Part shown: piece by piece, positions 42,001 to 45,000 of the stretch
Numbering within the stretch: position 1 is the stretch's first letter
How the letters are laid out: each line of letters opens with the position of its first letter
NCBI RefSeq assembly: GCF_024298765.1
Contig: NZ_CP101213.1
Source: Escherichia coli
Lineage (GTDB): Bacteria > Pseudomonadota > Gammaproteobacteria > Enterobacterales > Enterobacteriaceae
Strand: one strand, 5' to 3'
DNA length: 62,297 nt
Made by a program: the position numbers

Positions 42001-45000
42001 TCAAAACATCAATGGCTTCTTTCATCATATTCATATTCATATTCATATTCATATTTATCATATTCGAGTGTTTTATTCTCATAATAGAATCCTGTCTTTG
42101 CTAATCAATAGTATCTTTATTGCGAGGATTATTCAGATACGTCTGTTTTATCGTGATTATCAAGGTCTGGATTAGTAATCACATTGCCTCCGGCAACCAT
42201 GACTTTTTTTCCTCCAGCTTTAGGGAGATAAATTTCTGCAATTTTTGCTATTTCATCCATGACTTCTTGTGTAAACAGGTTTGGAATGTCAACATGATTG
42301 TTACGGGCGATATCCACGCGGCGTTTAAACTCTGGTTCTTCAAACCAGATTATTTTGTTGGCAATAAATGGTCGGCTAAATTCACTGGTTATAATTTCAC
42401 GGATTGCAATATTTCTGGCTTTATTCTTCTTATCCCGGAGAGACACAATTTCTTCAGGAAGAAGAACCGGGCGCTCTATTACATCATCATTCCGTGTACG
42501 TGAACTTCCTCCCTTACCACCACCACTGGATATTGAGCGTTTGGATATTTTCATATCACGCACCCCAATCTCTTCTGAAATCTTTTTAGCCAGAGCATTT
42601 TTTGATTTCGGCGGATAGTAAAGCACAACAGCACTGTTTTCAGTGAATGTGGTCCATCCTTCCTGACCGTACATATCGCTTTTTTGCCCTTGTCCTTCAT
42701 TCTGAAGAATGAACATAAAGCGAAGGTTATAACCTGCTGTAAAACCAACAGCGCGTTCAATGACCTCCGATTTACCCATTGATGTAAATTCATCCAGGAG
42801 AATAAGGCACTGGTATTTCAGGTCCGGGTTATGTTCCGGCAGTTCACGACAGTTTTCATTAACCAGTAATGAGAAGAAAAGGTTTACAATTTTCTCATGA
42901 GTGATTAAGGCATCCGGTGTCAGACCAAGATAAATTGACATGGGTTTTTTACGAATATCCCGGATATCAAAATCACTGAAATTCGTCGCTTCAGCAGTAA
43001 CAGGGTTGCTGAATATATTCAGTGGTGATGAAAAGTTCGTTTTTATACTTCCCCTTGTGCGATCTGGTGCTGACATGAACTCAAAGAAGAATGATTTTGT
43101 TTTATCGCTAATCCAGCTACGATTTTCAACTTCCTGTCCCATCCATGCGGCGAGATCTTTTCCATTATCGGGAATCGACGTTTTCAGTATGGCGCTGATG
43201 GAAACAAGGACGTCCGGTGCATTATGACCTTTGGCTTTCTGGTCCAGGTGAAAACGCTCCTTATCCAGCAGGTAAAGCCCTAACCCGACAAAAAGGTTGC
43301 GTGCAGAATCAGACCATATAGGATCATCACTTGCCGGGATAAGGATTGCGGCAATTTTTGCCAGGTCCGTTTCACGAAGTAAATCACTGCGACTGACGCA
43401 ATCCAGAGGATTCCAGCGGTGAGAGCGTATCTGTCCTTTAATTGCCTGGTCGATAGTTTCCGCGTATCCGGCGGGCGCAAAGAGAAAGCATTTTTGCCCT
43501 AATTCTTTTTGCCTGAATCCGGCTGATAAAAACCAGTTTTCAAGTTTGATATCCAGTATGACCATACTTCCTGGATAGTTTACGCAGTTGGGGATAACAA
43601 TCCCCACCCCTTTACCAGAACGTGTCGGGGCATAAAGAATTAAAAATTGTTGTCCGGCGAAATAAATAAATTGTTTTTTGTATCTCCCCTTGAACATTTT
43701 ACCGATGAGTATTGGTGGATGTTTGTAAGGTGATTTTTTATCCGGGAAAAAACCTGATTTACTCAGGTCCATATCAGTTGCGAGCCGGGCGTCACCGTAG
43801 ATGACTTTTTTAGGCATAATCCCAATCACGACAATTAACATGAATATGGCAAAGAATATTAATGGAACGCTGAATCCAAACCATGCCATAAAAACGAGTT
43901 TTTTATATTGTGGGTTGCCAGAAAATGTTGAGATTACAGAATGGAATGTATCCCACTTGAGCAAAGACATATCAACGGATGAATATCTTAATGCTGTGTA
44001 TCCACCGAGATAGTTTGAGGCTATAAGCACACCCACAAGAAGCAGTAACAGGAAGAGAATTAACCCCCCCATCTTTTTTGCATTCATAGTTATCTCCACA
44101 ATTTACATTGTGCTCAAAAAACGATTTTTTTTCTTCGGGTTCGTAATACAGTTCAGTCATTCTGGTATGGTTGAAAAAAAGAATGACATCAATTGATGTT
44201 TTTATCGTGCGCATGATGAGGTCCATATCAACAGTCATACCAACATCAGATTGTTTTACAATACTTGCCAGTCGTGAAAATGAGGCATAAGTATTATTAG
44301 CATGAATGGTACTGATTGAGCCTTCATGCCCTGTATTAAGCGCCTCCAGATAACTCCATGCTTCGTTACCCCTAAGTTCAGCAAGAAAGATGTGATCTGG
44401 CTTTAATCGCATACACGCTTCAATGATTTCCTTCGCTTCAACGGTATTTTTTTTGTAGAAAAGCCGGATATGGTTTGGATGCAGCGGCAGAGACATTTCC
44501 GGTACATCTTCAACGGTTATATAACGCCGTTCAGGTGGAAAGATATCTGCAATTGCCTTTGCTATAGTTGTCTTACCGGAGCCAGTCCCACCGACGATTA
44601 AAAAATTAAGACGGTCTTTAACTGCCTCTCTTAAAAATCGAGCTTTAGATTGACCATCTGGACGCCGGGATAATTCATACAGGTAGCGTTGCCGTTCAGT
44701 CAGGATGGCTTCGTGTTTCGTCGCAATCCTGACATTATCAAAACGCCCTGTTCGGACATAATCATCTATAGTAAAGCGCGTTAATGATGGCTTACGGATA
44801 GATATCACAACGCTGTTATTTTCTGTTGCAGGTGGAATGATGATTTGTCCACGTTCCCCACCGGGAAGAACTACCGATGCAATGGGATTATCATGGCTAA
44901 GTGGTATTTTTATCTTTGATAAGTTCGTCAGAGTTTTGGCAAGTGTCATTAAATTATCAAAAGTCGCGTCTGGCGCATCTTTAGATTCCCAGCCATTTTT

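What the first reader, a model, noticed from the sequence alone, without database searches (positions are those of the whole stretch)
42026..42082. Hexanucleotide microsatellite forming five in-frame ATG codons at the start of pilM
(catatt)5 on the plus strand reads as (ATGAAT)5 at the 5' end of pilM, giving the N-terminus MINMNMNMNMNMM and several alternative starts. Slipped-strand changes would stay in frame but alter N-terminal length and the spacing to the RBS. This could tune pilM translation or be a hypervariable site.
Basis: seen in the sequence. Interest (0 to 1): 0.4.

Follow-up and report, generated by a model that had tools for sequence, protein, structure and literature searches.

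The report
Variable 6-base repeat, IncI2 plasmid gene
A perfect five-copy 6-base repeat sits in frame near the start of a small ATP-binding protein gene (not pilM) on an IncI2 resistance plasmid. Its copy number ranges from 2 to 7 among otherwise near-identical plasmids, so it is a real but ordinary slippage-prone length polymorphism with no sign of acting as a switch.

Summary
The repeat is real. (CATATT)5 on the + strand equals (AATATG)5 on the coding strand at 42026-42055, about 4e-10 expected by chance. It is truly polymorphic: about 450 IncI2 plasmids carry 2 to 7 units (5 units in about 62%). Alleles differ on backbones with 0-1 SNP in 17 kb, and the same allele recurs on backbones 52-172 SNPs apart, so slippage is recurrent.

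The gene is not pilM. The true PilM (PF07419) lies 10 kb away at 52140-52577. The repeat gene (41546-42082, minus strand) is an uncharacterised 178-aa P-loop NTPase between virD4 and pilN. It is called 'YfdA' in R721-style annotation and is misnamed 'sigma-54-interacting regulator' by PGAP.

All homologues outside IncI2 start at the Met aligned with the last repeat ATG. The first 18 residues, including (Asn-Met)n, are therefore an IncI2-specific, low-confidence N-terminal extension. The only usable Shine-Dalgarno (AGGA, 7 nt) precedes the first ATG at 42082, upstream of the repeat, so copy number cannot change RBS spacing. Predicted accessibility of the start region barely changes with n.

Best reading: a near-neutral in-frame VNTR in a dispensable tail of a weakly constrained protein. 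It may be useful as a plasmid typing marker, and a regulatory role is untested.

The parts
42026..42055 (-). Perfect hexanucleotide array (AATATG)5, which is (CATATT)5 on the + strand. It encodes (Asn-Met)5, codons 10-19 of the ORF.
   Evidence: TRF, sequence, regex scan.
42056..42064 (-). Degenerate flanking unit AATATGATA (Asn-Met-Ile, codons 7-9). It is the 5' boundary of the array and is invariant in all 12 annotated plasmid loci compared.
42023..42025 (-). ATG (Met20) immediately after the array. Met19/Met20 align with the start Met of all non-IncI2 homologues.
   Evidence: Alignments; query ranges.
41546..42082 (-). 178-aa small P-loop NTPase ORF ('YfdA', 'ATP-binding protein', PGAP 'sigma 54-interacting transcriptional regulator'). 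Walker A GETGTGKS is at residues 38-45. The stop overlaps the pilN start by 8 nt.
42090..42093 (-). Shine-Dalgarno-like AGGA, 7 nt upstream of the ATG at 42082.
   Evidence: Sequence; SD:anti-SD duplex dG -4.1 kcal/mol against about 0 for the repeat ATGs.
42129..44087 (-). virD4/traK-type coupling protein gene, immediately upstream (46-nt spacer).
39910..41553 (-). pilN (type IVb pilus secretin lipoprotein), immediately downstream and overlapping the ATPase ORF.
52140..52577 (-). The real pilM (145 aa, PF07419, 51.2 bits), next to pilL (52583-53818). Listed to show that the repeat gene is a different gene.

Best explanation
The array is an in-frame microsatellite (VNTR) created and resized by replication slippage. 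It lies inside a lineage-specific N-terminal extension of a small stand-alone P-loop NTPase, which sits between the coupling-protein gene virD4 and pilN on IncI2 plasmids.

Translation most likely starts at the ATG at 42082, which has the only Shine-Dalgarno element. The repeat is then translated as (Asn-Met)n, lengthening or shortening a poorly ordered tail or helix extension that precedes the conserved ATPase core.

The unit is two codons long, the tail is absent from all other family members, and the protein is weakly constrained in IncI2. Copy-number changes are therefore tolerated and drift: short arrays (n=2) are stable and longer arrays (4-7) change repeatedly.

Shown: existence of the repeat, frame, polymorphism, recurrence, gene identity and the N-terminal boundary of the family. 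Inferred: start-codon usage, neutrality and the slippage mechanism.
For: Repeat and frame.

Polymorphism in about 450 PLSDB IncI2 records:
- n=5: 281 records.
- n=6: 26.
- n=3: 21.
- n=7: 3.
- n=2: at least 59, including R721 NC_002525.
- n=4: about 60, obtained by difference.
- Simpson index about 0.57.
- Exact-protein look-up finds n=2, 3, 4 and 5 on 611, 713, at least 1000 and at least 1000 contigs, so the variation is not an assembly artefact.

Recurrence, from 17,132 aligned backbone sites:
- n=5 and n=7 plasmids differ by 0-1 SNP.
- n=5 and n=6 plasmids differ by 1-4 SNPs.
- n=6 occurs on at least 3 backbones that are 52-124 SNPs apart.
- n=4 occurs on at least 2 backbones that are 172 SNPs apart.
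- n=2 is found in all the more diverged lineages.

Start codon:
- All fetched records that annotate this CDS start it at the same ATG.
- SD:anti-SD dG is -4.1 at Met1, against about 0 at the repeat ATGs.

The tail is an add-on:
- About 55%-identical homologues (141-146 aa) and all 50%-cluster representatives begin at the residue aligned with Met19-Lys21.
- Those homologues have their own strong SD.
- AF2 gives pLDDT 52-67 for residues 1-20 and 83-92 for most of the core.

Weak constraint:
- pN/pS is 1.14 for the ATPase core, against 0.08-0.14 for the flanking virD4 and pilN (Fisher p=0.0037).
- The Walker B Asp, present in at least 90% of family members, is Asn in this allele.

No predicted effect on initiation: mean unpaired probability of the SD/start region is 0.51-0.56 for n=2-10.
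Against: - No experimental mapping of the start codon was found, and the SD at Met1 is weaker (-4.1) than that of the homologues (-6.1 to -6.3).
- The AU-rich array supplies many in-frame AUGs that could support SD-independent initiation.
- The ORF overlaps pilN, so its translation could influence secretin synthesis.
- A weak sigma-70-like match (TTGATT-16-TATTAT, 42108-42081) would place a transcription start just upstream of the repeat. However, such matches are fewer than in shuffles of the region.
- Neutrality is inferred from distribution and conservation, not measured.
- The dominance of n=5 may reflect clonal expansion of mcr-1 plasmids rather than neutrality.
Confidence: 0.72

Rival explanations
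1. Translation-tuning element. Repeat number alters how efficiently, or from which of the many in-frame AUGs, the ATPase is translated. Through the 8-nt overlap it would also alter how much PilN secretin is made, modulating thin-pilus output.
For: - Eight in-frame ATGs occur in the first 20 codons, within an AU-rich stretch.
- The ORF stop overlaps the pilN start.
- The ancestral start of the family coincides with the last repeat ATG.
- Alleles change repeatedly.
Against: - The SD lies upstream of the first ATG, so its spacing is independent of n, and the repeat ATGs have no SD.
- Predicted start-region accessibility is flat across n.
- pilN has its own GGAG (dG -6.1).
- Thirteen plasmids of one mouse-gut/chicken series all keep n=4. 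This argues against rapid switching under in vivo passage.
Confidence: 0.12
2. The repeat is untranslated leader. The true protein starts at Met19/Met20 as in all other family members, and the upstream 'MRIKHSNMI(NM)n' is only an open frame in the 5' UTR.
For: Homologues start exactly at that position. Residues 1-20 are modelled with low confidence. The few substitutions in the leader are mostly non-synonymous, with S/L/T at codon 6.
Against: - There is no SD before Met19/20 (dG +0.4), whereas Met1 has AGGA at 7 nt.
- The frame from Met1 stays open in every IncI2 lineage examined, despite 1-2% divergence.
- All fetched annotations that include this CDS choose Met1.
Confidence: 0.1
3. Adaptive protein-length variation. 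The number of Asn-Met pairs sets the length of the N-terminal helix and so modulates an interaction, for example with the coupling protein or the pilus machinery, under diversifying selection.
For: AF2 models residues 5-29 as one helix continuous with the core. The protein shows pN/pS of about 1.1. The allele spectrum is broad.
Against: - The helix extension has low confidence.
- A pN/pS near 1, together with loss of the Walker B Asp, fits relaxed constraint better than positive selection.
- The gene is not even annotated in the best-studied IncI2 plasmid, TP114.
Confidence: 0.05
4. Sequencing or assembly artefact: the copy-number differences are errors in a low-complexity tract.
For: None specific. 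Repeats can be miscalled in noisy long reads.
Against: - The array is only 12-42 nt long, well within short reads.
- Each allele recurs in many independent records and hundreds of contigs.
- All differences are exact multiples of 6.
Confidence: 0.01

Closest known systems
Short-unit VNTR loci of enterobacterial genomes and plasmids used in MLVA typing (e.g. Salmonella Typhimurium STTR5, STTR6 and the plasmid-borne STTR10pl)
   Same: Perfect short tandem units whose copy number changes stepwise by slippage, differs among close relatives and is homoplasic. Diversity index here is about 0.57, within the 0.37-0.87 range quoted for STTR loci (PMC5744012). The 6-bp unit length of STTR5/6/10pl and the pSLT location of STTR10pl are from my own knowledge.
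   Different: This locus is on the IncI2 conjugative backbone, is very short (2-7 units) and sits at the extreme 5' end of a coding region, where each unit adds an in-frame ATG. I found no paper describing it.
Haemophilus influenzae licA (CAAT)n translational switch with alternative initiation codons
   Same: A tandem repeat at the 5' end of an ORF with several candidate start codons, and slipped-strand mispairing that changes repeat number (PMC2212159).
   Different: In licA the 4-nt unit shifts the frame relative to upstream ATGs, giving on/off switching at about 1e-2 to 1e-3 per generation. Here the unit is 6 nt, every allele stays in frame with every ATG, the arrays are far shorter, and no switching is evident.
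R64/IncI1-type PilM (Pfam PF07419)
   Different: No sequence similarity. The real PilM of this plasmid lies next to pilL at 52140-52577. In IncI2 the pilL-pilM pair and pilN-pilV are separated by the virB/virD4 genes.
Small stand-alone P-loop NTPases encoded downstream of VirD4-type coupling proteins in IncX-like plasmids (P0021-P0030 family; Pfam nSTAND3-like)
   Same: 51-62% identity over the whole core, with Walker A and the same predicted strand order. The gene lies in a conjugation region downstream of the coupling-protein gene.
   Different: Those proteins lack the 18-residue N-terminal extension and the repeat, have a strong SD at the conserved Met and are not next to pilus genes.

Membership tests
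PilM (thin-pilus protein, Pfam PF07419) | Significant match to the PilM profile | tested here: not met
   No PF07419 hit at E<=0.01 for the repeat-bearing ORF. ORF 52140-52577 scores 51.2 bits against a cut-off of 25. BLASTP between the two proteins gives E about 1.
PilM (thin-pilus protein, Pfam PF07419) | Gene adjacent to pilL in the pil cluster | tested here: not met
   The repeat gene lies between virD4 and pilN. pilL and pilM lie about 10 kb upstream (TP114 gene list).
Simple-sequence contingency (phase-variable) locus | Tandem repeat tract within an ORF or promoter whose number varies among close relatives | tested here: met
   n=2-7 among IncI2 plasmids, with changes on 0-1-SNP backbones.
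Simple-sequence contingency (phase-variable) locus | A change of repeat number switches expression (frameshift or altered promoter spacing) | tested here: not met
   The unit is 6 nt (2 codons). All alleles keep an intact ORF of 172-182 aa. The array is not between promoter hexamers. The SD and first ATG lie upstream of the array.
Simple-sequence contingency (phase-variable) locus | High-frequency reversible switching within a clonal population | not testable with these tools
   No read-level data are available. Indirect evidence only: 13 plasmids of one mouse-gut/chicken series all have n=4.
VNTR / microsatellite | Perfect head-to-tail copies far beyond chance | tested here: met
   5.2 copies at 100% identity; expectation 3.9e-10.
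VNTR / microsatellite | Stepwise copy-number polymorphism with homoplasy; longer arrays less stable | tested here: met
   The allele series 2, 3, 4, 5, 6, 7 is complete. The same allele occurs on distant backbones and different alleles on identical backbones. n=2 is fixed in the diverged lineages.
Sigma-54-dependent transcriptional activator (PGAP product name) | Full AAA+ sigma-54 interaction domain (about 168 aa, GAFTGA loop) plus a DNA-binding domain | tested here: not met
   The PF00158 match covers only residues 14-58, which is profile positions 5-48 of 168 (22 bits), i.e. the P-loop region. No GAFTGA motif is in the sequence. The protein is only 178 aa.
P-loop NTPase (nSTAND3-like / RecA-superfamily fold) | Walker A motif and an ASCE-type alpha/beta core | tested here: met
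   GETGTGKS at residues 38-45. PF20720 scores 30.1 bits against a cut-off of 27.2. AF2 core pLDDT is 83-92. Foldseek hits to KaiC, PilT, FlaH and RecA-type ATPases have TM 0.45-0.56.
P-loop NTPase (nSTAND3-like / RecA-superfamily fold) | Walker B acidic residue at the end of the hydrophobic strand | tested here: not met
   Position 102 is Asp in at least 90% of family members but Asn in the window allele (TLVLN). Assigning this strand as Walker B is my inference from the model.

The most novel reading that the evidence does not exclude
The array might be a plasmid-borne tuning knob. Copy number would set the usage of the stacked in-frame AUGs, and so the amount or isoform of the YfdA ATPase. 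Through translational coupling it would also set the amount of PilN secretin. IncI2 (including mcr-1) plasmid populations would then carry heritable, reversible variation in thin-pilus output and in mating efficiency in liquid or the gut.
Probability: 0.06. Interest if true: 0.6.

Novelty: new member of a known kind. Interest (0 to 1): 0.22.

Why it matters
Practical value:
- This is a fast-evolving, easily typed marker on the backbone of the main mcr-1 plasmid family. Alleles differ between plasmids that are otherwise identical over 17 kb.
- It can add resolution to plasmid epidemiology. Its homoplasy must not be over-interpreted.

Annotation corrections:
- The gene next to pilN in IncI2 is not pilM.
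- It is not a sigma-54 regulator.
- It is missing from the TP114 reference annotation, so its role in conjugation has never been scored.

Biologically it is an ordinary tolerated VNTR unless the low-probability tuning hypothesis proves true.

Tried and rejected
- The 4-unit query was submitted twice, once typed and once as a locus reference. Both returned 'No match', although 4-unit plasmids exist. I treated this as a tool quirk, and the n=4 count is by difference only.
- The exact-sequence look-up reported the n=6 and n=7 proteins as absent, although they are in PLSDB and RefSeq. That collection is therefore not exhaustive, and absence of n=1 and n=8-10 there is weak evidence.
- Rfam scan of 41700-42400 gave only a chance-level hit (E=0.82, 21.8 bits against a gathering score of 65). 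An RNA-gene reading was rejected.
- The promoter/terminator scan found one weak sigma-70-like match overlapping the start codon and no terminators, fewer than in shuffles. This is not evidence for a promoter whose spacing the repeat could change.
- The PDB sequence search gave only generic P-loop matches. The fold search gave only generic RecA/KaiC/PilT-like similarity, so no specific function could be assigned.
- Literature searches for this repeat or for yfdA in IncI2 found nothing. The TP114 transposon-mutagenesis table has no entry for this ORF.
- The + strand ORFs across the repeat (41916-42104 and 41984-42175) were dismissed as shadows of the repeat.

Full report
**1. What is in the sequence**

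Tandem Repeats Finder reports one perfect period-6 array at 42025-42055, with 5.2 copies and 100% matches. A regex scan shows it is the only perfect repeat with a unit of 3 or more bases and 4 or more copies in the window. About 3.9e-10 such arrays are expected from the base composition.

On the minus strand the array is (AATATG)5, occupying 42055-42026. It lies in frame in an ORF at 41546-42082 (178 aa) that begins MRIKHSNMI(NM)5MKEAIDVLINSEKHILIIGETGTGKS. The first 20 codons hold eight in-frame ATGs: codons 1, 8, 11, 13, 15, 17, 19 and 20.

**2. What the window and the gene are**

The region is 100% identical to many roughly 60-kb IncI2 conjugative plasmids of Escherichia, Salmonella, Shigella and Klebsiella. 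One example is CP085520.1 pMCR4D31-3, at 62,295 bp.

The gene order in annotated records is kikA, pilL, pilM, an ORF, virB1-virB11, virD4, the repeat gene, then pilN-pilV and rci.

The real PilM is the 145-aa ORF at window 52140-52577:
- It scores 51.2 bits against PF07419, with a cut-off of 25.
- The repeat gene has no PilM hit and no similarity to that protein.

The repeat gene's own matches are generic:
- Its Pfam hits are P-loop matches. The only ones above their cut-offs are nSTAND3 (30.1 bits) and a 45-residue piece of the sigma-54 interaction domain.
- That partial sigma-54 match explains PGAP's misleading product name.
- NCBIfam gives nothing above any cut-off.

In R721-style annotation the gene is 'YfdA'. 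In the experimentally studied IncI2 plasmid TP114 no gene is annotated between traK (virD4) and pilN. There, pilM (TP114-010, pfam07419) sits after pilL and is non-essential (PMC7508951 Supplementary Data 1).

**3. Copy number across related plasmids**

I used a 106-nt query centred on the array, plus synthetic or fetched variants of it. About 450 PLSDB IncI2 records matched. The matched lengths were 88, 94, 100, 106, 112 and 118 nt, which correspond to 2-7 units.

| Units (n) | Records | Source |
|---|---|---|
| 5 | 281 | |
| 6 | 26 | |
| 3 | 21 | |
| 7 | 3 | |
| 2 | at least 59, including the prototype R721 (NC_002525) | |
| 4 | about 60, by difference | the direct query failed |

- Simpson diversity is about 0.57.
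- In the fetched examples the annotated CDS always starts at the same ATG and is 519-549 nt long. One lineage has an interrupted array, AATATA.
- An exact-protein look-up in a far larger collection finds the n=2, 3, 4 and 5 proteins on 611, 713, at least 1000 and at least 1000 contigs. This excludes an assembly artefact.

**4. Recurrent change or inheritance**

I aligned 17,132 ungapped backbone sites (virB1 to pilU) from 12 plasmids.

- The window and pMCR4D31-3 (n=5) differ by 0-1 SNP from two n=7 plasmids, one from Taiwan and one from Bahrain.
- pEG430-1 (n=5) differs by 1-4 SNPs from two n=6 plasmids.
- n=6 occurs on at least three backbones that are 52-124 SNPs apart.
- n=4 occurs on backbones 172 SNPs apart.

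The site has therefore changed many times independently. It changes at least as fast as the whole 17-kb backbone accumulates a single substitution.

Other observations point to limits on that instability:
- All of the more diverged lineages carry n=2. This fits the usual rule that short arrays are stable.
- Thirteen plasmids of one mouse-gut/chicken series all carry n=4. The locus is therefore not switching at contingency-locus rates.

**5. Where the protein starts**

The homologues found at about 55% identity are 141-146 aa long. They lie in IncX-like contexts (VirD4, Cag12, TrbM ... TopB) with no pilus genes.

These homologues, and essentially all representatives of the small family (38 clusters at 50% identity), begin at the residue aligned with Met19-Lys21 of the window protein. 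They have a strong SD there, GAGGA or GGAG, with dG -6.3 and -6.1.

In IncI2 that position is preceded only by the repeat, with an SD:anti-SD dG of about +0.4. The ATG at 42082 has AGGA at a 7-nt spacing, with dG -4.1.

I conclude that IncI2 acquired an upstream start and an 18-residue extension, within which the array expanded from two units. This is an inference.

AlphaFold2 gives pLDDT 52-67 for residues 1-20, modelled as a prolongation of helix 1, and 83-92 for most of the core. Fold matches are generic RecA-superfamily ATPases such as KaiC, PilT and FlaH, with TM 0.45-0.56.

**6. Does copy number matter?**

The SD and the first ATG are upstream of the array, so SD-ATG spacing does not depend on n. 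In ViennaRNA ensembles of the -60 to +110 region, the mean unpaired probability of the SD/start region stays at 0.51-0.56 for n=2-10. Each added unit contributes only about -1.3 kcal/mol of weak self-pairing.

The gene itself looks weakly constrained:
- Between the two main IncI2 lineages its core has 8 non-synonymous and 2 synonymous differences, giving pN/pS 1.14.
- The flanking virD4 and pilN give 0.08-0.14 (Fisher p=0.0037).
- The probable Walker B Asp, conserved in at least 90% of family members, is Asn here.

All of this favours a tolerated, near-neutral length polymorphism.

Two features leave room for the tuning hypothesis, which I could not test:
- The stacked in-frame AUGs in an AU-rich context.
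- The 8-nt overlap of the ORF with pilN, although pilN has its own GGAG.

**7. Comparison with known systems**

The locus behaves like the short-unit VNTRs exploited in MLVA typing of Salmonella and E. coli, for which diversity indices of 0.37-0.87 are quoted (PMC5744012).

It resembles the H. influenzae licA (CAAT)n switch only superficially. There a 4-nt unit moves the ORF in and out of frame with alternative start codons (PMC2212159). Here a 6-nt unit never does.

It is not a PilM and not a sigma-54 activator. I found no publication describing this repeat.

**8. Verdict**

The gene identity is wrong and the RBS-spacing mechanism is not supported. This is a new example of a familiar kind of feature, an in-frame VNTR. 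It has modest practical value for sub-typing IncI2 plasmids and for correcting annotations, and a small chance of regulatory significance.

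Noticed in passing
window 16621-16845 (+), inside ORF 14196-18509: A long tandem repeat of 18-nt units x 12.5, or 54-nt x 4.2. It encodes (E/A)QATEQ repeats in the middle of the 1437-aa NikB-type relaxase. It is probably another length-variable in-frame array.
   Followed up: partly
window 41546-42082 (-), residue 102: The presumed Walker B Asp, conserved in at least 90% of family members, is Asn (TLVLN) in this allele and in the other fetched IncI2 loci. Together with pN/pS of about 1.1 against about 0.1 in the neighbouring genes, this suggests the ATPase is catalytically impaired or decaying in IncI2.
   Followed up: partly
window 41546-42082 (-); public annotations: PGAP names this 178-aa P-loop protein 'sigma 54-interacting transcriptional regulator' with a GO term for transcription regulation. 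The name rests on a 45-residue P-loop match only. The TP114 reference annotation omits the ORF altogether.
   Followed up: yes
loci L013-L017 (IncX-like contigs), gene at 4001-4432 / 1211-1636: Homologues of the small ATPase occur downstream of VirD4-Cag12-TrbM genes and near topB in IncX-like plasmids that have no type IVb pilus genes. The protein therefore seems to belong to the VirB/D4 conjugation module rather than to the pilus module.
   Followed up: partly
window about 41840-41890 (-), residues about 66-77 of the ATPase: A second length-variable stretch. Some IncI2 alleles (P0005, P0006, P0008) lack YKRHE and/or carry an extra LK in the His/Pro/Leu-rich segment. The window sequence shows no obvious repeat there.
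   Followed up: no
window 13503-13514 (+): A perfect (CT)6 dinucleotide run. It is the only other perfect microsatellite of 5 or more copies in the window.
   Followed up: no
window 41546-41553: The ATPase stop codon overlaps the pilN start (ATGAATAA) by 8 nt, an arrangement compatible with translational coupling. pilN also has its own GGAG about 10 nt upstream.
   Followed up: partly
tool behaviour: A 100-nt query carrying 4 repeat units returned 'No match' twice, while the 94-, 106-, 112- and 118-nt versions each found 450 records. The exact-sequence protein look-up did not contain the n=6 and n=7 alleles that are present in RefSeq plasmids.
   Followed up: no
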